Below, in pieces: positions 21,750-50,324 of a stretch of DNA of 50,324 nt; the first letter of the stretch is position 1; the number at the start of each line of letters is the position of its first letter. The notes under the pieces are model-generated. The model was not told where the DNA came from and did no database searches. It worked only from the letters and a program-made list of their open reading frames with translations. This stretch comes from a virus (Duplodnaviria > Heunggongvirae > Uroviricota > Caudoviricetes): the IMG/VR virus record IMGVR_UViG_2681813429_000008, positions 1 to 50,324 of that record, one strand, 5' to 3'. The position numbers and the translations under genes are program-made.

Positions 21750-21825
21750 TGGTGCTGGTTAACGGACTTGAACCGCTACCCATTCGCTTACAAGGCGACT
21801 GCTCTACCATTGGAGCTAAACCAGC
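21750..21825 (-). tRNA. tRNA with anticodon UGU (Thr-like)
   Basis: Hand-folded 76 nt cloverleaf: 7/7 bp acceptor stem (GCTGGTT/AACCAGC), D-arm GCTC/GAGC, anticodon loop CTTGTAA, T-arm with TTCAAGT loop, encoded 3' ACCA. Confidence 0.6.
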
Positions 21826-21830
21826 ATATT

Positions 21831-21905
21831 TGGCGGGACAGCGTGGACTCGAACCACGATAAGAAGGTTAACAGCCTTCCGTAATGACCTTTATACGACT
21901 GACCC
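21831..21905 (-). tRNA. tRNA-like sequence, anticodon GUU (Asn-like), degenerate
   Basis: 75 nt. Good anticodon arm (GAAGG-CTGTTAA-CCTTC) and T-arm (CGTGG-TTCGAGT-CCACG) and 3' GCCA, but acceptor stem has a T-T mismatch and D-stem only 3 bp. Confidence 0.4.
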
Positions 21906-39501: not shown

Positions 39502-39702
39502 ATGCAACACGAACTACAGCCTGATTCACTGGTTGATTTGAAATTCATCATGGCTGATACTGGCTTTGGTAAAACCTTCATCTACGACCGGATTAAGTCC
39601 GGCGACCTGCCAAAAGCCAAAGTTATCCACGGGCGAGCAAGATGGTTATATCGTGACCATTGTGAATTCAAAAATAAGCTCTTAAGCCGCGCCAATGGGT
39701 AA
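39502..39702 (+). CDS. xis: Excisionase (Xis/AlpA-family winged helix)
   Basis: 66 aa, last gene of the PL operon, directly upstream of the att core. Confidence 0.6.
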   Translation: MQHELQPDSLVDLKFIMADTGFGKTFIYDRIKSGDLPKAKVIHGRARWLYRDHCEFKNKLLSRANG

Positions 39703-39774: not shown

Positions 39775-39790
39775 TCTGCAGGGGACACCA
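39775..39790 (+). other. att core: copy of a tRNA-Arg (argW-like) 3' end, junction between prophage and satellite
   Basis: TCTGCAGGGGACACCA ends in an aminoacyl acceptor 3' end and matches the last ~15 nt of E. coli argW as recalled. Lies between xis and the second integrase, about 160 bp upstream of its start. Confidence 0.55.
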
Positions 39791-39950
39791 TGAACACTTC
39801 TCACTAAGTTCAATTAATTCCATAACTCACTGTTTTAACTGATATCATCTCCTTATACTCGTCCAGCAAAGTACCATTATTTCTAATGGAATCTATACAT
39901 CTTTGCGTATAACATTGTGTATAACTGAGTTCGATCTTTTTTCTATACAC

Positions 39951-41126
39951 ATGCTGCTATCTGACATCCAAATAAAAAGAGCAAAACCGAAGGACAAACC
40001 CTATACGCTTAACGATGGTATGGGGCTATCACTCCTGATCGACACAGCGGGCAGTAAAGGCTGGCGTTTTCGCTATCGCTTTGCAGGTAAGCCTAAGATG
40101 ATTTCCTTTGGCGTATATGGCGATGTGTCGTTGGCACAGGCACGTACCAAACGTGATGAAGCGCGTTCGATGTTAGCCAACGGGATAAACCCAAGTGAAG
40201 CCAGAAAAGCAGATAAGATTGCTTTGCAGTTCGCGCATGAGAACAGCTTTGAGTCTGTGGCCAGAGAATGGCACTCATCGAAAAAAGCCACCTGGTCAGA
40301 GGGTTATGCAAAAGAGGTTCTCAATTGTATGGAAAAGGATATTTTTCCTTTTATCGGCCAGCGCCCAATTGAGCAGATTGAACCATTAGAACTGCTAACC
40401 GTCCTGCAAAAAATAGAGAAAAGAGGTGCGCTAGAGCAAACCAGTAAGATCCGCCGCCGCTGTGGTGAAGTGCTTCGTTATGCTGTTGCCACTGGTAGAG
40501 CAAAGTATAATTTTGCACCCGATTTAGCTATCGCACTCAACAAACCTAAAACCCAACACTTCCCGTTCCTGACTGAAAGCGAGTTGCCCGAGTTCGTTAA
40601 TGCTCTGGATAACTATCAGGGCAGTTTAGTTACCAAATACGCCACGCAGCTGTTGATGCTAACAGGCGTGCGAACAATTGAACTACGTGCAGCGGAATGG
40701 GCTGAGTTTGATTTAGATAATGCCTTATGGGAGATCCCCAAAGAACGGATGAAGAAACGCCGCCCCCATCTGGTTCCGTTATCAACTCAGGCGATCAATA
40801 TCCTGAAAAAGCTGCAAGAAATAACAGGGAATTACAGCCTCGTTTTCCCTGGCCGGAATGACGTCAGTAAACCAATGAGCGAAGCCAGCATCAACAAAGT
40901 GATAAAACTACTGGGTTATCACGGTCGGTTAACGGGTCACGGTTTCAGGCATACCATGAGCACCATCTTGCATGAGCATGGGTTTGAAAGTGCCTGGATT
41001 GAAATGCAGCTTGCGCATGTTGATAAGAACTCTATTCGAGGTACTTACAATCATGCGCAATATATTAAAGATCGACAAGTAATGATGGAATGGTACGCTA
41101 GCTTATTAAATACGACCTGCTATTAA
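39951..41126 (+). CDS. int: Tyrosine integrase, P4 family (second copy)
   Basis: Start chosen at ATG MLLSDIQIKRAKPKDKPYTLNDG. Shares the RRCGEV.RYA..TGRAKYN.APDLA and HGFRHT motifs with the first integrase. Confidence 0.9.
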   Translation: MLLSDIQIKRAKPKDKPYTLNDGMGLSLLIDTAGSKGWRFRYRFAGKPKMISFGVYGDVSLAQARTKRDEARSMLANGINPSEARKADKIALQFAHENSFESVAREWHSSKKATWSEGYAKEVLNCMEKDIFPFIGQRPIEQIEPLELLTVLQKIEKRGALEQTSKIRRRCGEVLRYAVATGRAKYNFAPDLAIALNKPKTQHFPFLTESELPEFVNALDNYQGSLVTKYATQLLMLTGVRTIELRAAEWAEFDLDNALWEIPKERMKKRRPHLVPLSTQAINILKKLQEITGNYSLVFPGRNDVSKPMSEASINKVIKLLGYHGRLTGHGFRHTMSTILHEHGFESAWIEMQLAHVDKNSIRGTYNHAQYIKDRQVMMEWYASLLNTTCY

Positions 41127-42056
41127 ATCCAGCATGAAACAAATATGGTGAGTAATTTGATACTGTTTGTTTTTTGGCAACCCAGGGAAATGCCTTACAG
41201 TTGGTTGACTATTGTAATAATAATAGTTAAGACCAATGTTGCTGCCAAACTGGGTTGGATGTTGGGGAACAAGATTTGTAATTTGATCTGAAACATCTAA
41301 AAATTTTGCAGTAACATTTGAACTTCCTCGTTGCGTGTTGCTTGATACAAAATGACGAATCCAAACTGTATTCGCTTGTAAATTCTTGAACACCAAATGT
41401 GCGGCAACAGCAGAAGGTTGACCACCTCCAAGATCTAGTACCTGGCCAGTAATTGTATAATCGCCAAATCCTAAGTAATTTTGTCCCACGAATTGATGTG
41501 CGTGCGTGAAAAGTTCCGGCCCATTATAATCAGCATTTTTTGCTAACTTTCTAAAGTTATCGCTAATAATAATTAACTTCGACAAAGGAAGAAGAGCGCA
41601 CTGATTAGGAAGCATTTTATTATTTAAAACAACATGATAACTAATCAATTGATTTGTCGCCAACAACTGAATATCAGAGTTGGATAATGATGGATTATCA
41701 TATAGAAGTGCAACTCGTCTATTTAAGTTAGCATTCAACCAATTATTAATATCATTAATCGTTGTATTGGGCTGAATAAGATATCCAGAGATGATATTAT
41801 TTTTATTTGTTAATACACTTGATAAATTTTGATTTAAAGTTAAGACGTTATTGTGTGAAGAAAAATCTTCCTGATAAGGATTAAGGATAACAATTATGTC
41901 AGAATTCCAAACATTTAAACATGTTAATAAATTTCTCGTATTGACGTTAATTGGTTCTAAAATTGGTAGCAGACCATTTAGGCTAACTCCCTTCGCAACG
42001 AGGTCCCTAAGGCATAATAACTCTGTACTTCTCGCATACAAATATGGGCTATACAT
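41106..42056 (-). CDS. Hypothetical protein, AT-rich cargo gene B (downstream gene of a two-gene cassette)
   Basis: 316 aa, Asn/Leu-rich, coding GC far below the surrounding DNA. Its 3' end overlaps the integrase 3' end by ~21 nt. No recognised domain. Confidence 0.6.
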   Translation of the reverse strand: MYSPYLYARSTELLCLRDLVAKGVSLNGLLPILEPINVNTRNLLTCLNVWNSDIIVILNPYQEDFSSHNNVLTLNQNLSSVLTNKNNIISGYLIQPNTTINDINNWLNANLNRRVALLYDNPSLSNSDIQLLATNQLISYHVVLNNKMLPNQCALLPLSKLIIISDNFRKLAKNADYNGPELFTHAHQFVGQNYLGFGDYTITGQVLDLGGGQPSAVAAHLVFKNLQANTVWIRHFVSSNTQRGSSNVTAKFLDVSDQITNLVPQHPTQFGSNIGLNYYYYNSQPTVRHFPGLPKNKQYQITHHICFMLDLIAGRI

Positions 42057-42077
42057 AACTTACAACTCCTGAGGATA

Positions 42078-42959
42078 TCAACAAATTTTAATTTTTACAT
42101 CCATCAAATTCATGATGAATTCTTTTTGCTTTCTTGATAATGGTGTTGCATAACCTAAAACACGTAAACATGCTGGAAGAGAATAAATATAATCCAAAAA
42201 AACTTTATCGTTACATCTTTTTTTCATAGCAGAGATAAAGTATTTATTTGCTATGTTTAATGGCATCTGCATGAATATCTCTTTACAATATTCATAAACC
42301 AATCCGTTAGGCATATTTATTTTAGTTGAAGTGTAATCTTCTATTATAGCTAAGAACTCTTCCTTTCTAAGAACTGAAAACAAGCTGTCACTTTTAATAT
42401 AATCAATATTTGAATCTGCCTCCTTAATGACACTCAATTGATCTTTTTTATTCAAAACCATAACTCCCACTCTGGGGAGATTTAAAGCACAATATTTACT
42501 TGCATACTCTGGATGTGTAACTATATACACTTTATCAAAAACATCCAAATAATCAGGGGCTTGAGTAATCAACCTTTTTGGTGAATCATACTCTGTCTTA
42601 ATCTCGTAAGCTGTAGACGTACCATTAAACACCGCAACATCCACTATAGAGTTTTTAATTGGTAACTCTATGGACGACGAACTTGTTTTTGGGCTGTGCT
42701 TACCGAATATTATTTTATTGACAAGTGCTGTCTTATAAACATATTCATTTCTATAATTCAGACGCAAAAAATCATATAATGATGTAAATAAATCCCTTAG
42801 TGAAATCTCATGTTCATTATTATCATTGTTTGAAAACAGTGTTTCATAGCAGTAAGAATCAAAACTCCCAAATAAATCCGAAATATCCTTACCTTTTGCT
42901 AAGGATGAAAAAATGGGGCGACGGAAAAATTTAGCATATTCCTTTTTATTATGACTCAT
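42078..42959 (-). CDS. Hypothetical protein, AT-rich cargo gene A; possible PD-(D/E)xK nuclease-like motif
   Basis: 293 aa. Motif IVDVAVFNGTSTAYEIKTEYD has the hydrophobic-D ... E-x-K spacing of restriction-endonuclease-like folds. 21 nt upstream of gene B. Confidence 0.6.
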   Translation of the reverse strand: MSHNKKEYAKFFRRPIFSSLAKGKDISDLFGSFDSYCYETLFSNNDNNEHEISLRDLFTSLYDFLRLNYRNEYVYKTALVNKIIFGKHSPKTSSSSIELPIKNSIVDVAVFNGTSTAYEIKTEYDSPKRLITQAPDYLDVFDKVYIVTHPEYASKYCALNLPRVGVMVLNKKDQLSVIKEADSNIDYIKSDSLFSVLRKEEFLAIIEDYTSTKINMPNGLVYEYCKEIFMQMPLNIANKYFISAMKKRCNDKVFLDYIYSLPACLRVLGYATPLSRKQKEFIMNLMDVKIKIC

Positions 42960-43638
42960 TACTCATACTCTATAAACATCATGCAATTTGATAAGTTATG
43001 ACGAATTCTCACCATCCAGTTACTACCTGTACATACTAATCAAAAAAAACGAGTACGCAAGATACGAAAGTACTTTTCTTGTTCACCAGTTAGCTTACCT
43101 TGATCCTCACCAGCGACTGGAAGATAGGTAGCAGTATATGTGGAAACCTTCCCCTAGCTAGGTCTACAAACGTAGTTTGGGCATTTAGGCTCCACGATTC
43201 ACGGTTTGACACGGCCTGATATCTGCACATTCGTTTTGATATGCAGCAATCGTGAAAAAGGAAAATATACGCTCGACAGACCAAAACGGCACTACACCGC
43301 ACCCGCCTGCGGTTTTCATATCACTAAAAATTTTCAGCCTGGATTTTTTACAAACGATACCGCCAGTCCGTGCCAGTCCTCGAGATGTACTGCGATACAG
43401 GAACTGAAAAGAATGAAAAGAAATTCATTTTTTTTCAGTTTTACTGTCCGTCGAATCTATGGCCTGAATACGCAACTCTATGATATTAAATGGATAATTA
43501 ATTTTAGGTGTGTGATTTTATGAAGGTTTGTGAAACATGAAGAAGATAACCAGTTGAAAAATAATAATTTTATGACCGTATAAACTGAAATCCTGTGTTC
43601 AGGTTCCGGGAACAGATCGGCCATTCCCGACGCATACT

Positions 43639-43911
43639 TTACCCATTCTTTTGCGCAGCCAGCAGCAACTTTAAAGCCTTTTCCCGTTCCTCGGGTGGAA
43701 TTGCATCAATCAGCTCTTTAACCCTTCCCTGCCCGTTCAGCGCGCTTGGACTAACGGAATGGGAGAAAGCAACATTCATCACAAACGAGTGACCGCACTC
43801 CACATTAGAGCAATAGCAGTACACATCGTACAGTTGTGGGTGTTTCCTGTTTGTTTTACCTATCCGTGCTACTGCCTGACATGTGGGGCAGTACATTCTC
43901 ATCATCTTCAT
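43639..43911 (-). CDS. ogr: Ogr/Delta-family zinc-finger late-gene activator
   Basis: 90 aa with CPTC...C.C...C.H zinc-finger pattern (MRMYCPTCQAVARIGKTNRKHPQLYDVYCYCSNVECGHSF) characteristic of P2 Ogr / P4 Delta. Confidence 0.85.
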   Translation of the reverse strand: MKMMRMYCPTCQAVARIGKTNRKHPQLYDVYCYCSNVECGHSFVMNVAFSHSVSPSALNGQGRVKELIDAIPPEEREKALKLLLAAQKNG

Positions 43912-43979
43912 CGTTCTGTGCCCTATACTGTTGCCCGCCAGAAGAAGGGATTTGGATCCCTACCTCTTGTTCTGAACGT

Positions 43980-44170
43980 GTAACACTGGTAACACGTGTA
44001 ACGCTATTGATTTAAAAGGATTTAATCTGTTACCAGTTAGCAAAATCAAGAGGTAACGCGTGGTAACACACCATTTTTTGTTACCTCTGTTACCAGTCAG
44101 TATTTTTGACTGGTAACACTGAAGAACCGCATCAGTAACGGGTGTTACCTCTGTTACCAGTGTTACCTCA
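43980..44170. repeat. Iteron array (GGTAACAC / GTGTTACC heptamer-octamers, about 12 copies): putative satellite origin
   Basis: Repeated GGTAAC(A/G)C and complementary GTTACC motifs in both orientations between ogr and the primase gene. Resembles the P4 ori/crr octamer TGTTCACC as recalled. Confidence 0.7.
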
Positions 44171-44193
44171 TAAAAATAAGACTCACGCGATAA

Positions 44194-46881
44194 TCACTCA
44201 GGTTCAGCGCTTCCCAGTACCTGTGTATTGAACTGGTACACACGTTTAAGCCCTATTTCTGGCAGGCGAATGCTGTTTTGCGTCCGGCCATCTTCACCGG
44301 GTTTCAGCCAGCCCGCGTCCACACACAACCTGGCCACCTTACGCGAGTCAAATCCCTTACAGATCTCCTTCCAGCCTGACGGGAGAACGTAGAACGTCAC
44401 AACCGGCTCTGTCACGTTGTCTCCTTTATCGACTTTTCTGAATCCCATCATTGAAACAGGCCGGTTCCTGTCGTCATTCCAGTCAGCAAACCGACTGAAC
44501 TGATTACGCGTCATGAAGTCCCGAACCTGTTCAAGTGCCGCTTTATCTTCCTGATTAGCTGTATGGCCCCGGTCAGCCATCCATGCAGCCAGACAGCTTT
44601 GAGCGGCACGAAAGGCCTCTCCCTCCGGCCATCCTGTGATGCCCGCTTTTGTGGCCAGCTCCCCGGCCATCGCAACCAGAGCAAAACGGGTAACAGCCCG
44701 GCCAACCTGATTCCCGGCATTTTCCGGCGTCAGCCTTCGGGTATACTCTTTCAATAAGGCTTTCGCCTGACTGGTCAGTTCCGGCAGATCAGCGGTCAGG
44801 CAATACAGCCAGTCGCGGAATGGTGCACCATGATAATGCGCTACGTGCTGCTCAAGATGCTCAGCCAGGGTTTTCCCGCTACTGAAGCCATGAAGTTCTT
44901 CAAACACGCCATACTTGCCCGAATCGCTTGGGATCTGGATCATTCTGACCTCAACCCCGGCATACGTACGTTCCCCGGCGCTTGCCGCATGCTCTACCAG
45001 TGACAGTTCCCCGGTAGACAGAAACAACAGATTCCAGCGGTTGGTTTCCCTTACCGAACCATCTGTTCTGGCTCTGGCTTTGCCCTGCCCGTTAGCCAGC
45101 ATATAAGCGATATTTCCCGCCTCCCTGCCGTCAACCTCCCGGATTTCATCCAGCATCAGCGTGGCATCATTGCGGCGGCTCGCCGTTCCTTCTAAGGCAT
45201 TCCCCGTCGCCCGCCACGTATGCCAGAAATCTGTTCCACCACATACTGATGCAGCCACTTTCATCGTCGTGGTTTTACCGTCTGTGGATTCCCCTTTGAG
45301 GTGATAACCTCCACCGCCGATACCAACCAGTTTCAGAAGGGGGGCAGCAAATGCCAGACTCACCGCAAAGGCAAGACGGGCATTCTTTATGCAATAACGG
45401 CCTATATTTTCACGCCAGCCCTCTGATGTGCCGCTGACACGAAAATCACGCCCCTGCACACTCGATGTTTGTAAGATGACTGACTGGGCTTCGCGCCCTA
45501 TCACTTCATCCTGGAGAACGTAAACCCCGCCGTGCCAGCCAGTTTTATTCACACAGGTTACTTTTCTGTCCGGTTTACACAGCGAGATATATTCCATCAG
45601 GAATGCTCTGGCCATGCCGTTAATGTTGATGTAAGAAAGCCCGTTAACCAGCAGAACGCGGCGCAGTTCTTCCCCGCTACCGCCCAGCATCTCCATCGGC
45701 ATTGCCCATTTACGGCTGTTTCCGTTGGTATCTTCCCATTCCAGCAAACGCCCGTAATTACTTCCATCAGCATCACTGGTGATTGCCGTCACCCGCAACG
45801 GACTGCAAATTTTGATATTACGTATCTCTGTATCACCATCAGACTTATTAACCAGCTTGTCGTACCACAAATATTCTTTTGTCAGCCGGAACCCTTCTGG
45901 TAAACGGGTCTGCCCTTTGCCATGCAGCGTCATTTCTTCACGAAAGGCATCTCTCGCCCGTTCTTTCCCCACTTCCTGCCGATAATCATCCCAGTCAGCC
46001 TTATGGCGTACCGGAGGGAGCGTTACCCAGCCATCCACCGCTTTGGCGGCTTTCTCTGCCTGAATACGCCCGGTGTTTTCTTTGCCGTCAGCCAGATCAT
46101 TATCTCCGGCCAGAATGATCCGGGTTTCCGGCCAGCGTTTTCGGATCTGCTCCGTCACCTTCAGTAAATTGGTGGCAGCGACAGCCGCCACGATCCATCC
46201 TTCAGTCAGCAGACTGACGGTAAGCGCCGTGGCAAAACCCTCAGTGATAATCACCTGTTCAGGTGTTTCAGCGGGTATATCGGTCAGGGCAATGAATGCG
46301 CCAGACAGCTGGCTACCGGGCAGCAGACTTTTATCCCCGTCAGGATTGATAAGCTGGCCACCAGTAATATTCCCGGAAATATCCGTCAAAGGCAGCAGTA
46401 ATGAACCGGTGGAAAATGTTATTCCGGCCAGATTCAAAGGCTGTGACAGCAAGGGAAGTGAATACCCGTGTAAGCTCTTATTTGTCAGATAGACCGGCTC
46501 ACCATTGCAGGACTGCTGTCTGAGTCTGGTATATCGCTCCGCGCCCGCTTCTTTTCCTGCGGCCTTTTTCCTGGCTGGCAATGCGGGCTTCTCCTGTATT
46601 TCTGGTAATGCAAGCGCCTCAGATACCATCCCGGCGACTTCTTTTATCTTTCTTCCTGTCACCAGACGAACCAGATCAAGACCATCGCCATGACCGCACT
46701 GATTACAAAACCACGTCCCTCGCCCCGCTTTATCGTCCAGTCGAAAACGATCTTTTCCACCACAGGCAGGGCAAGCCCCATGATGTCCTGCGGACGGTAC
46801 TTTAATACCTAATGCTGACAGGATATAAGGCCAGCGCCCAATTGCAGCTCCGGAAATCGTGGATACAGACGGTGTTTTCAC
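44194..46881 (-). CDS. P4 alpha-type primase-helicase
   Basis: 895 aa. N-terminal zinc-binding primase region (CPACGG...CNQCGHGDGLDLV), central Toprim-like region, C-terminal P-loop NTPase (KGESTDGKTT). Confidence 0.85.
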   Translation of the reverse strand: MKTPSVSTISGAAIGRWPYILSALGIKVPSAGHHGACPACGGKDRFRLDDKAGRGTWFCNQCGHGDGLDLVRLVTGRKIKEVAGMVSEALALPEIQEKPALPARKKAAGKEAGAERYTRLRQQSCNGEPVYLTNKSLHGYSLPLLSQPLNLAGITFSTGSLLLPLTDISGNITGGQLINPDGDKSLLPGSQLSGAFIALTDIPAETPEQVIITEGFATALTVSLLTEGWIVAAVAATNLLKVTEQIRKRWPETRIILAGDNDLADGKENTGRIQAEKAAKAVDGWVTLPPVRHKADWDDYRQEVGKERARDAFREEMTLHGKGQTRLPEGFRLTKEYLWYDKLVNKSDGDTEIRNIKICSPLRVTAITSDADGSNYGRLLEWEDTNGNSRKWAMPMEMLGGSGEELRRVLLVNGLSYININGMARAFLMEYISLCKPDRKVTCVNKTGWHGGVYVLQDEVIGREAQSVILQTSSVQGRDFRVSGTSEGWRENIGRYCIKNARLAFAVSLAFAAPLLKLVGIGGGGYHLKGESTDGKTTTMKVAASVCGGTDFWHTWRATGNALEGTASRRNDATLMLDEIREVDGREAGNIAYMLANGQGKARARTDGSVRETNRWNLLFLSTGELSLVEHAASAGERTYAGVEVRMIQIPSDSGKYGVFEELHGFSSGKTLAEHLEQHVAHYHGAPFRDWLYCLTADLPELTSQAKALLKEYTRRLTPENAGNQVGRAVTRFALVAMAGELATKAGITGWPEGEAFRAAQSCLAAWMADRGHTANQEDKAALEQVRDFMTRNQFSRFADWNDDRNRPVSMMGFRKVDKGDNVTEPVVTFYVLPSGWKEICKGFDSRKVARLCVDAGWLKPGEDGRTQNSIRLPEIGLKRVYQFNTQVLGSAEPE

Positions 46882-47288
46882 AGCAGCACCTCCTGACCTT
46901 CCGGCTTCACAAATTCAAAACCTTCGGGTAGTTCGCCATCAGGTGCTCCGAAAATAATATCCCGGTAAACCTCACGCATCTCTGTGACACCAAAAACTGA
47001 CAGGCGAATATTTTCTGACATAAAGCCTGGTTTAAGCATTTTTTCCAGTTTCTCTGCGGCCAGTATGCAACCAGCATCAGCCCCAAACTCATTCACCCAC
47101 GGCATTTCAATATGGTAAATAATATTACTCACCACTTTTTCGTGGGAGAGTTCTATTCGTTCGCCATCTTCAATATAAACAGGTTCATTATGAACACGCA
47201 CCATTAAGGAAATGAATGCATCAGCAATGTAGTAGCGTAAGACTGCTGTTCGTAAAGCATGCGCCTTTAAATTTTGATTATTATTCAT
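46878..47288 (-). CDS. Hypothetical satellite protein
   Basis: 136 aa ORF overlapping the primase start by 4 nt. Confidence 0.5.
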   Translation of the reverse strand: MNNNQNLKAHALRTAVLRYYIADAFISLMVRVHNEPVYIEDGERIELSHEKVVSNIIYHIEMPWVNEFGADAGCILAAEKLEKMLKPGFMSENIRLSVFGVTEMREVYRDIIFGAPDGELPEGFEFVKPEGQEVLL

Positions 47289-47517
47289 CGCGCATCACTC
47301 CCTTAATTGTGCTGGTTTCCTTAACAACGCCATCCAGTTGTTCGGCAATACAGGCCACTAAAGCCGCAGCGCCTTCCGCTGAAACAGTTCTCGCTCCATT
47401 CACTGTGGGCACGGACAAGACCTCTGCAAGAAACTCACTGGCCAGTGCCGCCCGTAACAGACGACTCTCCCCCTGTTCACTCAATATGCAGCCTTGCTTA
47501 AAATTCATGGATTTCAT
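47281..47517 (-). CDS. Hypothetical satellite protein
   Basis: 78 aa ORF, translationally coupled to its neighbours. Confidence 0.45.
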   Translation of the reverse strand: MKSMNFKQGCILSEQGESRLLRAALASEFLAEVLSVPTVNGARTVSAEGAAALVACIAEQLDGVVKETSTIKGVMRDE

Positions 47518-47717
47518 GCAACCACCTCCCCGGCTCTTTTCACAGGGATACGGGCAGCAAAGCTCAGGATAAATTCAGTGGCAAGTTTAAGGCGTGCAGC
47601 ATGCTCGCATTCTGCGATTACACGCACAGGGCGTGGACGGGCATCACGGTCTGTACGGCGGACAGCCAGAAAGACAAAGGTAAATTCAGGGTGAGATAAA
47701 GCAGGGACTGTAGCCAT
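47514..47717 (-). CDS. Hypothetical small protein
   Basis: Only the last 67 codons of the 196-codon track ORF look genuine: internal ATG (MATVPALSHPEF...) preceded by AAGGAGG at ideal spacing. Confidence 0.45.
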   Translation of the reverse strand: MATVPALSHPEFTFVFLAVRRTDRDARPRPVRVIAECEHAARLKLATEFILSFAARIPVKRAGEVVA

Positions 47718-48149
47718 AATGGCAACCTCCTTCAGATAGCGGGTAACGCTACCACCGGAGTTCCTACGCTCATGGGTGGTAGCCCAGACGGGGGTAGGAA
47801 TACCGGCTCTGAAGGATACCGGCCAGCCCGAAAGCTGCCCCGCCTGGACTACCATAATTCTGATGATGTGGCGTAAAAAATAAAAAAATACAATCAGCCA
47901 CCACACCATAAATTTTAGGTGAGTCAAAGCTGCGACACAAAAAAACACGCCTAGCGCGTGTAGTATCGCCTTCAGATAACACGGGTTCCTACGCCCGGCT
48001 GCCGATTTTGCGGCAACCTTTAAACTATATCCCGCGCATTCCTGGTGAGGCAAGAAATTTATAACCGAAAACTGATCATTGCCTGGATTAATTAACGCTG
48101 GCATGCTTAAGCCTCTGCTTAAAAATAGTTCTTCATTTTTCCTGATGCT

Positions 48150-48182
48150 GTAAACGAGACCCGCCTCTGAGCGGGTCTTTCT
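48150..48182. terminator. Intrinsic terminator (GACCCGC-TCTGA-GCGGGTC)
   Basis: Perfect 7-bp stem with T-rich flank, immediately downstream of the capsid-homolog gene stop. Confidence 0.55.
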
Positions 48183-48191
48183 GTCGCTAAG

Positions 48192-49196
48192 TCAATCCGC
48201 AAACGTCAGGGTGCACTCATCAACAGCCGCGTACAGTTCAGGTTCACCGAGTGCATAACCTTCATTGCGCAGGTAGGAATGCACGTATTCACTGCTTTCA
48301 TCATCAAACTCAGCACGAAACCAGCGTGTTATCGCCTGAGTGTAAATATGCAGATTATCCAGCGTCGTTACTGCCAGACGCTTACCCGGCATAAACGGGG
48401 GAATAAACGCAAAGCGGCCAGCAACAGAACTTGTAGCCATCTGTGCCGCATTCACATCAGACGGGCGGTCTGCGGCATTAAATAACTTCAGGCGTTGATG
48501 TGCTGCCAGCTCTGCCCCAACCAGTACAACCAGACGAGGATCTTCACGAAACTGCTCAGCAATAAGCTCTGTAATCAGATGGTTGGCCAGAGCATCAATA
48601 TTTTTCCAGGTGCCAGTCTCTCCCAGAGTGACAGGCTCAGAGATGATTTGCTTTCCGTTCCCGTAGGCTTTCGCCAGTGCATGCCAGCCAATATTGACAT
48701 CCTCGCCTTTTTTATTGATTTCCGGGTTTGTAGTATTTGCAATCGACACACCGTTGAAACCGACCCGCAGCATGTCCAGCGCATATGCCTGGGCAAAAAA
48801 GCTCTCAACCGTTTTCTCAAACTCATCCGGCACGCCGGTATGGTAAATATGAGACATATCGGAATAGCTGATCCGGGCGCAGGTATCCGTCTCTGTCAGA
48901 AAGAACTCCGTACCATTGATTGCCATTTTTTTGTGGAAACGGCCACCATCCACACGTCCGGTATACAGTTCACTGGCACCAATATTGACGGCATTACCTG
49001 ACACGGCGTTAACATCACGTAGGGTAATATTTTTAATAAGCCACCCGGATTCCAGAATTGAGGTACGCAGTATATTTTCAGTAGGTTCGCTTAATGCAAA
49101 GCGTCTGTTTGATTCTTCCTGATAGTTAGTGCCAGTGACGAATTTATTATGATAACGACGTGCTGCGTCCGGCCTTTCAGTTTTGAAGGCATACAT
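48192..49196 (-). CDS. P2 GpN-family major capsid protein homolog
   Basis: 334 aa, colinear with P2 GpN as recalled (e.g. LRVGFNGV..., EDPRLVVLVGAELAA..., LDNLHIY...). No database search was run. Confidence 0.6.
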   Translation of the reverse strand: MYAFKTERPDAARRYHNKFVTGTNYQEESNRRFALSEPTENILRTSILESGWLIKNITLRDVNAVSGNAVNIGASELYTGRVDGGRFHKKMAINGTEFFLTETDTCARISYSDMSHIYHTGVPDEFEKTVESFFAQAYALDMLRVGFNGVSIANTTNPEINKKGEDVNIGWHALAKAYGNGKQIISEPVTLGETGTWKNIDALANHLITELIAEQFREDPRLVVLVGAELAAHQRLKLFNAADRPSDVNAAQMATSSVAGRFAFIPPFMPGKRLAVTTLDNLHIYTQAITRWFRAEFDDESSEYVHSYLRNEGYALGEPELYAAVDECTLTFAD

Positions 49197-49218
49197 AGTT
49201 TTTCACCTTTTTAAGTAT

Positions 49219-50079
49219 TTAAGAAAAGATTTTATTTTTGTACTCAGTAACCAGATTGTATTTCATTACATGCTCAACATAATCCCGGTCACTTACGACT
49301 GAACGTAATACATAATTATCTGCTCGATAGTACTCCCTGTAAGCCATAGCTCTTGCCATTCCACCGTTATTTAATACATAACGATCAGTTGGAACGCTAC
49401 AACGACTAATAATTTCACTCACGGAATCAGATAAAGACTTGAGTGCATCAGTAATAAATTTAATATCACGGACAACGTCACTGTCATTAAATACAGAAAT
49501 AAAATCAGCAGGGATCTGGCCGGATTGAGGAAATATATTCAGTAAACGCTTATCGATTCCCTTCCCAATGTAGTTTCCTTCATCGGCCAGTACTCCCGGC
49601 AAAAGCTTGATCGTGCTCAATCGACTATGTTGTTCATTCAACCGGGAAACAGCCAGATGGTAATACCGTTCAGCATCCGCTCGTTCAGCATGCCCCATTT
49701 TATTCGTTTTGGCTTCAGCAATGCTACTGACGCCGTTTTTTGAGAATGTGCTTTTCCATGCAACTTCCGCATTTGTCACTTCACGCTGCCGGAAAGATAA
49801 CTCTTCCTCTTCCTGACGACACAACTGGGCATAACGGCTCAGGAGCAGGTTGATCTCATTCGCCACAGTTTCCGTATCAGGTACTGTTAACCCCGTAAGT
49901 GAATACAGCTTTTCACCTTTAGCTCGCAGCTTATTCAGTGAATATATTTCAATAATACGCACAATACAGGCCGTGTCGCTATGAGTCTCTTTAAATGATC
50001 TTACTTTGTAACTATCTAACACCGACACATGTTCGTTCTTAATTGATGCCAATTTCTTCTTAAAAACATTGTCAACCAT
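49219..50079 (-). CDS. Hypothetical protein upstream of the capsid homolog
   Basis: 286 aa, moderately AT-rich. Size matches P2 GpO but no sequence similarity was recognised. Confidence 0.5.
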   Translation of the reverse strand: MVDNVFKKKLASIKNEHVSVLDSYKVRSFKETHSDTACIVRIIEIYSLNKLRAKGEKLYSLTGLTVPDTETVANEINLLLSRYAQLCRQEEEELSFRQREVTNAEVAWKSTFSKNGVSSIAEAKTNKMGHAERADAERYYHLAVSRLNEQHSRLSTIKLLPGVLADEGNYIGKGIDKRLLNIFPQSGQIPADFISVFNDSDVVRDIKFITDALKSLSDSVSEIISRCSVPTDRYVLNNGGMARAMAYREYYRADNYVLRSVVSDRDYVEHVMKYNLVTEYKNKIFS

Positions 50080-50096
50080 ATATTTGCCACCTCAAT

Positions 50097-50324
50097 TTAG
50101 GAGTTTAATTTTCTATTGAGAATATTCTTCTCTATCCATTCATTAACTTCATGCTCCACCCATGCAACAGAACGAGAACCGATAGAAACTTGGTTCGGAA
50201 ATTCATCATTCTTTATCTTTAGATAAATTGTTGACTTGGGTAAGCCAGTCAAATTAATCACTTCTGATATTCTCAGAAGTCTATATCTTTTTTGGGGTGC
50301 GTTTTCCCGAGGCAATAAGCTCAT
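50097..50324 (-). CDS. alpA: AlpA-family transcriptional regulator
   Basis: 75 aa; YRLLRISEVINLTGLPKSTIYLKIKNDEFP...VAWVEHEVNEWI is the canonical AlpA winged helix. ORF starts at the window edge, so the true start may lie beyond. Confidence 0.8.
   Translation of the reverse strand: MSLLPRENAPQKRYRLLRISEVINLTGLPKSTIYLKIKNDEFPNQVSIGSRSVAWVEHEVNEWIEKNILNRKLNS

What the first reader, a model, noticed from the sequence alone, without database searches (positions are those of the whole stretch)
43639..50324. P4-like satellite with Ogr/Delta, alpha primase and AlpA but a P2 GpN-type capsid gene and no recognisable sid/psu
Classical P4 redirects helper capsid assembly with Sid and Psu and encodes no capsid protein. 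Here the element has the P4 hallmarks yet carries a full-length homolog of the P2 major capsid protein, preceded by a 286 aa gene of unknown function. This may be a satellite that supplies its own capsid subunit, or a P2/P4 mosaic.
Basis: partly seen in the sequence, partly recalled or inferred. Interest (0 to 1): 0.65.

Follow-up and report, generated by a model that had tools for sequence, protein, structure and literature searches.

The report
P4-related satellite carrying its own capsid gene
This is a complete 11-kb phage satellite in the E. coli chromosome that shares replication and immunity parts with P4, but carries a capsid-protein copy, an unknown partner gene and the packaging site of a rarer group of P2-like phages (ESSI-2/Evevirus type), so it probably builds or reshapes small capsids in a way not yet described for this lineage.

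Summary
Ogr/Delta, a primase, AlpA, a 334-aa P2-family capsid protein and a 286-aa orphan gene sit at the stated coordinates, and no Sid or Psu is detectable.

The element is larger than the finding. It is a complete 11,034-bp island at tRNA-Arg (argW), running from window 39776 to about 500 bp past the window end. Beyond it lies dsdC, not a P2 late operon.

It is not a P2/P4 pair member:
- No P2/P4 cos is present.
- A 22-nt core identical to the termini of phage ESSI-2, with about 170 bp of conserved flank, lies between ogr and the defence cargo.
- The capsid protein and Ogr are 48-49% identical to those of ESSI-2/Evevirus phages, but only about 25% and 21% to P2 GpN and P4 Delta.

The architecture (AlpA, p28x, capsid, C4/isrK immunity RNAs, primase, iterons, Ogr, cos, variable defence cargo, integrase) is conserved across Enterobacterales. 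Element sizes are 10.9-11.8 kb, about 0.37 of the helper genome. The capsid gene and p286 are under purifying selection.

Best reading: a P4-related satellite of ESSI-2-like phages whose capsid homologue plus p286 replace Sid/Psu as the capsid-redirection module, analogous to SaPIbov5 Ccm. Packaging and small capsids are inferred, not shown. I rate it a new variant of a known kind.

The parts
39776..39791 (+). Left att repeat (CTGCAGGGGACACCAT, the 3' end of tRNA-Arg argW). In this window it is the junction between a P22-like prophage and the satellite, which sit in tandem at argW.
   Evidence: Sequence read. In strain SA186 the intact tRNA-Arg abuts the integrase, and the 20-nt repeat ATTCCTGCAGGGGACACCAT recurs 11,034 bp downstream.
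39951..41126 (+). Tyrosine integrase of the P4/DUF4102 type.
   Evidence: Arm-DNA-bind_3 + Phage_int_M + Phage_integrase. 39% identical to P4 Int. The RefSeq start corresponds to 39951; the mechanical ORF starts at 39903.
41106..42959 (-). Variable cargo slot, here a sce7725 / sce7726 gene pair (41106-42056 and 42078-42959). It is probably anti-phage cargo.
   Evidence: NF033831 E 1e-71 and NF033832 E 1e-51. PADLOC 'cll' E 1e-18 for sce7726. P4 cII is annotated as sce7726 family. Other family members carry Kiwa, HATPase_c_3 or DUF5343 genes in this slot.
43281..43447 (+). cos site of the ESSI-2 type. The invariant core GCACTACACCGCACCCGCCTGC lies at 43289-43310, followed by conserved TTTCAG/CTGAAA blocks that are putative terminase-binding sites.
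   Evidence: The sequence across the core is identical to the joined termini of phage ESSI-2. The core is invariant in all 12 complete satellites examined, and also matches at the end of one ESSI-2-like phage contig (L004). It matches exactly in at least 120 IMG/VR stretches, 82 of which carry ESSI-2-like structural genes. Block conservation is shown. The flank is 72-77% identical to the record ends of ESSI-2-like phages.
43639..43911 (-). Single-domain Ogr/Delta late-gene activator (90 aa).
   Evidence: PF04606 E 5e-14. 48% identical to the Ogr of Evevirus ev239 and of ESSI-2. Only 21% identical to either half of P4 Delta.
43976..44170 (.). Iteron field: at least 14 copies of TGTTACC/GGTAACA in both orientations. 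It is the probable replication origin or crr equivalent, downstream of the primase gene.
   Evidence: P4 has its crr with TGTTCACC-type repeats in the same position after alpha.
44194..46881 (-). Primase-helicase (895 aa): zinc ribbon + Toprim + DUF927.
   Evidence: Residues 1-317 are 38% identical to P4 alpha and the rest is unrelated. Unrelated to the Evevirus primase. 60-93% identical across the family. dN/dS 0.04.
46878..47517 (-). Two small conserved genes, p136 (46878-47288) and p78 (47281-47517), function unknown.
   Evidence: phrog_5991 and phrog_38507. Conserved in the Enterobacteriaceae-clade members, with p78 also matched in Providencia; not detected in the Yersinia or Salmonella members. 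The Cronobacter orthologue of p136 carries a precomputed DUF5375 hit, like P4 ORF106, but my own Pfam scan and BLASTP against ORF106 found nothing.
47514..48104 (-). P4/P1-type RNA immunity region: isrK / a1b1 target RNA (47940-48017), C4-like antisense RNA (47772-47859) and a short Icd-like ORF at the 3' end. The annotated 196-aa 'Ash/Icd' ORF largely overlaps these RNAs.
   Evidence: Rfam C4 81.1 bits (gathering score 45) and isrK 68.9 bits (gathering score 50). Icd-like domain at residues 141-188. 49% identity to the translated P4 cI region. Terminator-like hairpin at 47961-47945 and promoter-like site at 48053-48024.
48192..49196 (-). P2-family (HK97-fold) major capsid protein homologue, 334 aa, of the ESSI-2/Evevirus lineage.
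   Evidence: PF05125 E 9.5e-67. 49% identical to the Evevirus capsid protein. Fold matches 7jw1 gpN. Satellite copies form one clade sister to the phage copies. dN/dS 0.10. 45 invariant columns are shared with phage capsid proteins.
49219..50079 (-). p286, an orphan all-alpha protein that is always encoded immediately upstream of the satellite capsid gene. Proposed scaffold or size-determining partner.
50097..50324 (-). AlpA-family regulator/excisionase, first gene of the alpA-p286-capsid operon. The window ends at its start codon.
   Evidence: PF05930 E 5e-20. 46% identical to P4 ORF88. The gaps to the next genes are 17 and 22 nt. A conserved TGT-N12-ACA dyad lies about 62-64 bp upstream of the ATG, outside the window.

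Best explanation
The region is the larger part of a complete 11.0-kb integrative phage satellite at argW. The satellite shares its replication, immunity and regulatory backbone with P4: an AlpA homologue, C4/CI-type immunity RNAs, a primase N-domain, iterons, an Ogr/Delta activator, a cargo slot next to cos, and a P4-type integrase. It parasitises a different branch of P2-like phages, the ESSI-2/Evevirus group.

Proposed mechanism, with shown and inferred steps marked:
1. Inferred: when a helper is present, Ogr-type activators from helper and/or satellite switch on the satellite's alpA-p286-capsid operon, and the satellite Ogr switches on helper late genes. This follows P4's PLL and Delta.
2. 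Inferred from homology: AlpA and Int excise the element, and the primase-helicase replicates it from the iteron origin.
3. The site is shown; its use is inferred: the helper terminase recognises the satellite's cos, whose core is identical to the helper's and whose flank is conserved in blocks.
4. Inferred from the capsid homology, the obligate gene pairing, the absence of Sid/Psu and the tightly constrained genome size of about 11 kb (about 0.37 of the helper genome): the satellite's own capsid-protein homologue, together with the all-alpha partner p286, takes the place of P4's Sid/Psu. It co-assembles with, or replaces, the helper capsid protein on the helper's portal to give small capsids that fit the satellite and exclude the helper genome.
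5. Inferred: helper tails complete the particle.
For: Complete and bounded element. att repeats lie 11,034 bp apart at tRNA-Arg, with dsdC beyond. There are no portal, terminase, tail or lysis genes.

Helper identity:
- No P2/P4 cos with up to 3 mismatches.
- Identical 28 nt across the ESSI-2 termini.
- The 22-nt core is invariant in 12 satellites from E. coli to Providencia, although p286 is only 26-50% identical among them.
- The same core is in at least 82 IMG/VR stretches with ESSI-2-like structural genes.
- About 170 bp are conserved in blocks.
- The capsid protein and Ogr are 48-49% identical to ESSI-2/Evevirus, against about 25% and 21% to P2 and P4.

Functional capsid module:
- Full-length HK97/GpN fold, with 45 invariant columns shared with phage capsid proteins.
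- dN/dS is 0.10 for the capsid gene and 0.15-0.18 for p286.
- The satellite capsid proteins form one clade sister to the phage capsid proteins.
- p28x is always directly upstream of the capsid gene, even in the most distant relative, which has a different primase.
- Yersinia and Providencia members add a GpO protease-domain gene lacking the scaffolding half. That makes sense only if the capsid protein is assembled and processed.

Size constraint. Nine elements with different cargo and integrase modules measure 10.9-11.8 kb (one uncertain at 10.1 kb), against helpers of 28.8-30.9 kb.

P4 backbone. C4 and isrK RNAs score above their gathering scores. The AlpA, cI-region, integrase and primase N-domain homologies are, and the iterons.

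Precedent. SaPIbov5 Ccm is a capsid-protein homologue that redirects capsid size (PMC8569155; PDB 7rwz appears). PmCI172 carries a capsid homologue and makes small capsids (PMC6092414).
Against: - No experiment or virion-derived data show that this element is induced, packaged or transferred. IMG/VR contigs are mostly prophage predictions, not virion DNA.
- Small capsids are purely inferred.
- p286 has no detectable similarity to any scaffold (Sid, Psu, GpO C-terminal domain), so its role rests on position and co-occurrence.
- I found ESSI-2/Evevirus-like prophages in only 28 of 5426 complete E. coli genomes by megablast, and none appeared among the ST131 carriers listed. In its main E. coli host the satellite may rarely meet a helper.
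- I could not identify Ogr-responsive promoters convincingly. Perfect TGT-N12-ACA dyads are absent from the helper head-gene promoter regions and from the Yersinia, Providencia and Salmonella satellites. The dyad upstream of ogr overlaps the iterons and may be incidental.
- The tree is neighbour-joining without bootstrap support.
Confidence: 0.66

Rival explanations
1. Interference or defence only. The capsid homologue and p286 act as dominant-negative decoys that poison helper capsid assembly, protecting the host population, and are not part of the satellite's own particles. The satellite, if it moves at all, is packaged in ordinary helper heads.
For: The element carries defence cargo next to cos. 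Satellite capsid-redirecting proteins are known to interfere with helpers (PMC6092414). In EcCICFT073, deleting the capsid homologue did not relieve interference, which shows such genes can have non-obvious roles. The helper is rare in E. coli.
Against: A conserved helper-type cos and a strict genome size of about 11 kb point to selection for packaging into a head about one third of the helper's. The invariant structural residues and full-length fold, and the protease-domain gene in some members, are more than a decoy would need. Interference and self-packaging are not mutually exclusive.
Confidence: 0.17
2. Decayed remnant of an ESSI-2/Evevirus-like prophage, or a P2/P4 recombinant, that kept a capsid gene by accident and is no longer mobile.
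For: In E. coli the element is almost clonal: 421 of 479 carriers are at least 99% identical, mostly in one lineage. That is compatible with vertical inheritance. The capsid protein, Ogr and cos all derive from one phage lineage.
Against: The same gene order, att-bounded size and intact ORFs recur in at least ten genera with 26-90% protein identity. dN/dS is 0.04-0.18. The replication and immunity modules are of P4 type and unrelated to the phage's. p286 is unrelated to the phage scaffold that occupies the equivalent position. The satellite capsid proteins are monophyletic, so they are not repeated remnants. Cargo and integrase modules are exchanged while the core is kept.
Confidence: 0.05
3. 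Classical P4-type satellite of P2/186-type phages whose Sid/Psu functions are provided by unrecognisably diverged genes, with p286 being a Sid/Psu relative. The capsid gene would be incidental cargo.
For: Sid and Psu are all-alpha, as is p286. P4-like variants lacking psu exist (PMC8628076).
Confidence: 0.05

Closest known systems
Satellite phage P4 and the P4-like satellites of Enterobacterales (Moura de Sousa & Rocha 2022, PMC8628076)
   Same: Size of about 11 kb. Integration at a tRNA gene by a P4-type integrase (39% identity). AlpA/ORF88 homologue (46%). C4/CI-type RNA immunity region (Rfam hits; 49% identity to the translated P4 cI region). Primase N-domain (38%). Iterons downstream of the primase. 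An Ogr/Delta activator. A variable defence slot next to cos. Genome about one third of the helper's.
   Different: No Sid, Psu or epsilon, so only 4 of the 7 core markers are present. Ogr is single-domain and of helper type. The helicase half of the primase is DUF927. The cos is of ESSI-2 type, not P2 type. The delta-cos-cargo-int block is inverted relative to P4. It carries a capsid-protein homologue plus p286 between alpA and the immunity region.
SaPIbov5 Ccm (cos-type staphylococcal island; PMC8569155, PMC5052747; PDB 7rwz)
   Same: A cos-packaged satellite that encodes a homologue of its helper's HK97-fold major capsid protein as the capsid size-redirecting factor. This is the closest mechanistic analogue.
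   Different: Gram-positive host, unrelated helper (phi12, prolate head) and an unrelated capsid-protein family. Ccm has no obligate p286-like partner. Function is demonstrated there and only inferred here.
Gram-negative PICIs with capsid homologues (PmCI172, EcCICFT073; Fillol-Salom 2018, PMC6092414) and capsid-forming PICIs (cfPICI)
   Same: int, alpA and primase islands of about 10-15 kb in Gammaproteobacteria that carry a major-capsid homologue. PmCI172 was shown to produce small capsids.
   Different: Their helpers are Mu-like or lambdoid. cfPICIs encode a whole head module (capsid protein, protease, portal, connectors, terminase subunits). This element has only the capsid protein and p286 (plus a protease domain in some relatives). 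It also has Ogr, P4-type RNA immunity and a Peduoviridae cos, which the papers I read do not report for those elements (own knowledge for EcCICFT073).
ESSI-2-like Peduoviridae (Seongnamvirus ESSI2, Evevirus ev239/ev015/ev040/ev129)
   Same: The capsid protein (48-49%), Ogr (48%) and the cos region are shared. These are the presumed helpers and the evolutionary source of the three modules.
   Different: They are 29-31 kb complete phages with GpO scaffold, portal, terminase, tail and lysis genes, and different replication proteins.

Membership tests
P4-like satellites (7 core markers; at most 2 missing, PMC8628076) | Integrase | tested here: met
   Arm-DNA-bind_3 + Phage_int_M + Phage_integrase; 39% identical to P4 Int.
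P4-like satellites (7 core markers; at most 2 missing, PMC8628076) | Delta (Ogr/Delta activator) | tested here: met
   PF04606 E 5e-14. It is single-domain, 21% identical to P4 Delta and 48% to the helper-type Ogr.
P4-like satellites (7 core markers; at most 2 missing, PMC8628076) | Alpha primase-helicase | tested here: inconclusive
   The N-terminal 317 residues are 38% identical to P4 alpha. The C-terminal half is DUF927 with no alignment to P4 alpha.
P4-like satellites (7 core markers; at most 2 missing, PMC8628076) | AlpA | tested here: met
   PF05930 E 5e-20; 46% identical to P4 ORF88.
P4-like satellites (7 core markers; at most 2 missing, PMC8628076) | Sid | tested here: not met
   tblastn best E 3.5 over the whole element. 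hhalign of the p286 family against Sid gives 0.6% probability.
P4-like satellites (7 core markers; at most 2 missing, PMC8628076) | Psu | tested here: not met
   tblastn best E 0.55; hhalign 0.3%; no Psu Pfam hit on any ORF scanned.
P4-like satellites (7 core markers; at most 2 missing, PMC8628076) | Epsilon (helper derepression) | tested here: not met
   No BLASTP alignment of p78 to epsilon; tblastn best E 0.019 over 25 residues. Some relatives (L008, L025) do carry a PF25738 Derepression gene.
P4-like satellites (7 core markers; at most 2 missing, PMC8628076) | cos shared with P2/186 helpers (GGCGAGGCGGGGAAAGCAC; sequence from my own knowledge) | tested here: not met
   0 matches with up to 3 mismatches in the window. 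An ESSI-2-type cos is present instead.
P2-family major capsid proteins (PF05125 / TIGR01551) | Profile score above the curated cut-off, and HK97/GpN fold | tested here: met
   Pfam 225.8 bits against a cut-off of 27. Fold match to gpN in 7jw1, TM 0.72-0.79. The stricter equivalog model TIGR01551 is narrowly missed (204.6 against 219.65).
Capsid-forming PICI (cfPICI) | Own head module: capsid protein plus protease, portal, head-tail connectors and terminase subunit(s) | tested here: not met
   Only the capsid homologue is present. No portal, connector or terminase gene lies within the 11 kb. A GpO protease domain occurs only in the Yersinia and Providencia relatives.
Gram-negative PICI (Fillol-Salom 2018) | int + alpA + primase/replicase island of about 10-15 kb at a specific att site, lacking phage lysis and tail genes | tested here: met
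   In several relatives int lies next to alpA, as in PICIs.
Gram-negative PICI (Fillol-Salom 2018) | Induction, packaging and high-frequency transfer by a helper phage | not testable with these tools
   Needs infection or induction experiments.
Ccm-type capsid redirection | A satellite-encoded homologue of the helper's major capsid protein that yields satellite-sized capsids | tested here: inconclusive
   Homology to the presumed helper's capsid protein is shown (49% identity). The size constraint is consistent. Capsid size itself is not testable here.

The most novel reading that the evidence does not exclude
The p28x + capsid gene pair is a previously unrecognised, portable two-gene capsid-redirection module. 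The satellite's own HK97-fold capsid protein, guided by an orphan all-alpha scaffold (p286) with no detectable relative among Sid, Psu, GpO, CpmA/B or TcaP, would replace rather than merely cap the helper capsid protein. It would build T=4 heads on helper portals. This would define a third solution to size redirection, alongside P4's external scaffold and the full head modules of cfPICIs, in a satellite family that spans Enterobacterales and sits in the pandemic ST131 lineage.
Probability: 0.3. Interest if true: 0.78.

Novelty: new variant of a known kind. Interest (0 to 1): 0.62.

Why it matters
P4 has been the sole model for how satellites exploit P2-like phages, and surveys define 'P4-like' by Sid, Psu and Delta. 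This family keeps P4's replication and immunity chassis but solves the capsid problem with a captured capsid gene plus an orphan partner, and it targets a different helper lineage through a different cos.

By the published rule of at most two missing core markers, the P4-like model should miss it, since only 4 of the 7 markers are present. I did not run SatelliteFinder, so this is inferred. The element is nevertheless in about 8% of complete E. coli genomes (chiefly ST131) and in many other enterobacterial genera, always with a defence-gene slot. If confirmed, three things would follow:
- The known range of capsid-hijacking strategies in Gram-negative bacteria would widen.
- There would be a natural comparison between Sid-type and capsid-homologue-type size redirection within one satellite lineage.
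- The rarely studied ESSI-2/Evevirus phages would be identified as vehicles for moving defence islands between Enterobacterales.

The compact 11-kb cos-packaged chassis could also interest those engineering P4-like delivery particles.

Tried and rejected
- **P2/P4 cos.** A search with up to 3 mismatches found none, so P2/186 is rejected as helper.
- **Evevirus as source of the replication module.** The primases and the small genes are unrelated.
- **Late promoters.** TGT-N12-ACA dyads lie about 62-66 bp upstream of alpA and ogr in the E. coli and Cronobacter elements. They are absent from the more distant satellites and from the helper head-gene promoter regions. The ogr-proximal one overlaps the iterons. 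I keep these only as a lead. A helper-specific TTCGG-N13/14-CCGAA dyad occurs once per phage and not in satellites.
- **The 7.8-kb 'Salmonella phage S.Kent 1-2-1' contig as a packaged satellite.** It is a tail and baseplate fragment of an ESSI-2-like phage that ends near cos.
- **The upstream prophage in the window as helper.** It is P22-like (CUS-3/Sf101 type), with no relation to the satellite's cos or capsid gene.
- **Technical failures.** A locus search with the wider p28x alignment failed for lack of a conserved stretch.
- **Literature.** Searches found no description of this family.
Full report
**1. What is in the sequence**

- Ogr/Delta zinc finger, 43639-43911.
- An 895-aa primase, 44194-46881 (zinc ribbon, Toprim, DUF927).
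- Two small genes, 46878-47517.
- A 196-aa 'Ash/Icd' ORF, 47514-48104.
- A 334-aa P2-family major capsid protein, 48192-49196 (PF05125, E 9.5e-67; phrog_70, E 2e-86).
- A 286-aa ORF without any family hit, 49219-50079.
- AlpA, 50097-50324.

An AlphaFold model of the capsid protein (pLDDT 82) finds P2 gpN in the P4 procapsid (7jw1) as its best solved match (E 2e-23, TM 0.72-0.79). The P2-like phage phiRSA1 comes next.

Sid and Psu are absent. Six-frame tblastn of the P4 proteins over the whole element gives nothing better than E 0.55. Profile-profile comparison of the p286 family with Sid and Psu gives probabilities below 1%.

**2. Extent of the element**

The region is 100% identical to a locus present in hundreds of complete E. 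coli genomes, including the ST131 strains JJ1886 and JJ1887.

In strain SA186 the annotated order is yfdC, tRNA-Arg, integrase, sce7725, sce7726, ogr, DUF927 primase, two hypotheticals, 'Icd-like', P2-family capsid, hypothetical, HTH regulator, then dsdC. A 20-nt direct repeat (ATTCCTGCAGGGGACACCAT, the 3' end of the tRNA) flanks the element, with copies 11,034 bp apart.

Three things follow:
- The element is complete.
- The window ends exactly at the alpA start codon, with only about 500 bp of the element missing.

In this window the tRNA side is occupied by a P22-like prophage (CUS-3/Sf101 type) inserted in tandem at argW. The shared att remnant is at 39776-39791. The finding's coordinates therefore miss the integrase, the cargo genes and the cos site.

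**3. Which helper**

The P2/P4 cohesive-end sequence is absent even with three mismatches. A blastn search of the non-coding DNA between the cargo and ogr instead hit the record ends of Cronobacter phage ESSI-2 and of Escherichia phages ESSI2_ev015, ev040 and ev129, at 72-77% identity.

Reading the ESSI-2 termini shows a 15-nt terminal overlap. Across the joined ends, the 28 nt AAAACGGCACTACACCGCACCCGCCTGC are identical to window 43283-43310. The ev239 record ends in a sequencing adapter fused to ...CCCGCCTGCGG, which is consistent with a physical DNA end there.

The 22-nt core GCACTACACCGCACCCGCCTGC behaves as follows:
- It is invariant in all 12 complete relatives of the satellite that I retrieved, from E. 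coli to Yersinia and Providencia.
- It always lies 350-400 bp downstream of ogr, although p286 is only 26-50% identical among these elements.
- It occurs exactly in at least 120 IMG/VR stretches. Of these, 82 carry ESSI-2-like baseplate, tail-fibre, terminase or portal genes and 10 are satellites.

An alignment shows block conservation over about 170 bp, comprising the core plus repeated TTTCAG/CTGAAA motifs, in satellites and phages alike. There is no conservation on the other side of the core.

The proteins give the same answer. The capsid protein is 48-49% identical to those of ESSI-2 and Evevirus but about 25% to P2 GpN. Ogr is 48% identical to the phage Ogr but 21% to P4 Delta.

The helper is therefore most probably an ESSI-2-like peduovirus, not P2.

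**4. Relation to P4**

The backbone is P4-like:
- AlpA is 46% identical to P4 ORF88.
- The '196-aa ORF' region is 49% identical to the translated P4 cI region. It contains Rfam C4 antisense RNA (81 bits) and isrK (69 bits), both above their gathering scores, followed by an Icd-like ORF. This is an RNA immunity system of the P4/P1 type.
- The primase N-domain is 38% identical to alpha.
- A field of at least 14 TGTTACC iterons follows the primase, where P4 has its crr.
- The integrase is 39% identical.
- A cargo slot adjoins cos. One of the cargo genes belongs to the sce7726 family, as does P4 cII.

There are also clear differences. The helicase half of the primase is DUF927. Epsilon is undetectable. 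The block delta-cos-cargo-int is inverted relative to P4. Sid and Psu are missing. With 4 of 7 core markers, the element fails the published P4-like definition, which allows at most two missing (PMC8628076).

**5. A conserved family**

Context look-ups and locus searches show the same order in many genera: AlpA, p28x, capsid, immunity region, small genes, primase, Ogr, cos, variable cargo. The genera include Cronobacter, Citrobacter, Enterobacter, Franconibacter, Kosakonia, Siccibacter, Phytobacter, Salmonella, Yersinia and Providencia.

- **Cargo.** It varies: Kiwa, an HATPase gene, DUF5343, sce7725/6.
- **Integrase.** It sits at either end of the element.
- **Protease gene.** Yersinia and Providencia members carry an extra gene for the protease domain of GpO without its scaffolding half.
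- **Size.** att-bounded sizes are 10.9-11.8 kb in nine elements (a tenth, at 10.1 kb, rests on an uncertain repeat). Helpers are 28.8-30.9 kb, a ratio of about 0.37, close to P4/P2.
- **Selection.** Against a Citrobacter relative, dN/dS is 0.10 for the capsid gene, 0.18 for p286 and 0.04 for the primase.
- **Phylogeny.** In a neighbour-joining tree, all five context-verified satellite capsid proteins and 110 further database relatives form one clade. That clade is sister to the ESSI-2/Evevirus/Canoevirus phage capsid proteins. This points to a single old capture, although the tree has no bootstrap support.

Satellite capsid proteins keep 45 invariant columns in common with the phage ones. They differ systematically in the N-terminal ~30 residues and lack the phages' short C-terminal tail.

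**6. The 286-aa protein**

It is a real, conserved gene. The first search returned 105 clusters. A full profile search found only 53 representatives among 1.84 billion proteins, nearly all 280-300 aa long.

Its one robust property is position. Wherever the downstream DNA could be identified, it lies directly upstream of a satellite capsid gene. This includes the most distant relative (E 4e-6), which sits in an ~11-kb island with a different primase.

I therefore propose that it is the capsid homologue's scaffold or size-determining partner. This is an inference from synteny and fold class, not a demonstrated function.

**7. Mechanism and rivals**

The best-supported model is a satellite of ESSI-2-like phages that is packaged through the shared cos. 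It would use its own capsid homologue plus p286 in place of Sid/Psu to obtain heads matched to its 11-kb genome.

The closest mechanistic precedent is SaPIbov5 Ccm (PMC8569155). Capsid homologues have also been noted in the Gram-negative islands PmCI172, where small capsids were shown, and EcCICFT073 (PMC6092414). The general idea is therefore known.

By synteny with P4's PLL, the alpA-p286-capsid operon should be a late, Ogr-activated unit lying upstream of the immunity terminator. A conserved TGT-N12-ACA dyad about 62-64 bp upstream of alpA in the E. coli and Cronobacter elements fits this. I could not generalise the motif to distant members or to the helper promoters, so this step remains a lead.

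Rivals:
- **Decoy-only interference.** Not excluded, and compatible with the main model.
- **Decayed prophage remnant.** Contradicted by the conservation, selection and modularity described above.
- **Cryptic Sid/Psu-type P4 of P2.** Contradicted by the cos and by the profile tests.

Weak points of the main model:
- There are no data on induction, packaging or particle size.
- ESSI-2-like prophages were found in only 28 of 5426 complete E. coli genomes by megablast, whereas the capsid module is in 479, of which 421 are nearly identical. In ST131 the element may be largely vertically inherited at present.

**8. Novelty**

Searches of the held literature found no description of a P4-related satellite with a P2-family capsid gene, of the p286 family, or of satellites of ESSI-2/Evevirus phages. 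Targeted reading of the P4-like, SatelliteFinder, hotspot and PICI papers also found none.

The library is incomplete, and such islands may already be counted as 'PICI' in automated surveys. Because satellites carrying capsid homologues are a known kind, I rate this as a new variant of a known kind, of moderate-to-good interest.

Noticed in passing
window 1-39791: A P22-like prophage (closest: vB_EcoP-720R6, CUS-3, Sf101, Kapi1; 94-96% identity over the head genes) sits in tandem with the satellite at argW. It carries its own tRNA-Thr and tRNA-Asn (21750-21905) and an Xis-like gene at 39502-39702. It ends at the shared att remnant.
   Followed up: partly
window 47514-48104: The annotated 196-aa 'Icd-like / Phage_ASH' ORF overlaps Rfam C4 antisense RNA and isrK, both above their gathering scores. 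Most of the ORF, and probably the Pfam Phage_ASH family itself, looks like a translation of an RNA-coding immunity region. Only the C-terminal Icd-like part is likely to be a real peptide.
   Followed up: partly
L002 (NC_049392.1, Escherichia phage ESSI2_ev239) 29143-29203: The RefSeq phage record ends in a poly-T run plus an Illumina Nextera adapter/index sequence (CAAGCAGAAGACGGCATACGAGAT...CTGTCTCTTATACACATCT on the other strand), fused to the phage DNA end. This is adapter contamination in a public record.
   Followed up: no
L006 10011-10532 (Yersinia ruckeri) and L007 10017-10550 (Providencia rettgeri): More distant members of the satellite family carry, right after the capsid gene, a 173-177-aa gene matching only the N-terminal serine-protease part of GpO (profile positions 3-145 and 3-178 of 268). 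It lacks the scaffolding half. The E. coli clade lacks this gene.
   Followed up: partly
L001 23598-23677 (about 275-350 bp beyond the window end, inside the element): A perfect pentanucleotide microsatellite, (GGCTG) repeated about 15 times, lies between the alpA promoter region and attR. It is a possible slippage-prone tract of unknown significance.
   Followed up: no
L002 17236-17258, L003 17383-17406, L024 10928-10950: ESSI-2-like phages have a single TTCGG-N13/14-CCGAA dyad in the divergent scaffold/terminase promoter region, instead of P2's TGT-N12-ACA. It is absent from the satellites. It may be a lineage-specific regulatory site.
   Followed up: partly
L013, L015, L016, L019, L020 versus L001, L006, L007, L018, L021: Two integrase configurations exist in the family. 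Some elements have a ~60%-identical integrase at the alpA end, targeting a different att (TCCTATTATCGGCACCA). Others have it at the cargo end, targeting tRNA-Arg. The core module is kept while the integrase module is swapped.
   Followed up: partly
L032, L050, L083, L090 (IMG/VR): These stretches contain the exact cos core and an Ogr 70-76% identical to the satellite's. They have no DUF927 primase, no p286 and no ESSI-2-like structural genes within reach. They may be further satellite types that use the same cos.
   Followed up: no
L016 (NZ_JBQPOM010000063.1, 'Vagococcus sp. WN89Y'): A genome labelled as the Gram-positive genus Vagococcus carries a typical enterobacterial copy of this satellite (primase 81% identical). 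This suggests a mislabelled or contaminated assembly.
   Followed up: no
summary (query window 41000-50324): About 1,200 further E. coli records, 892 places on plasmids, match part of the query at 80-90% identity. I did not determine which segment is responsible or why it is so common on plasmids.
   Followed up: no
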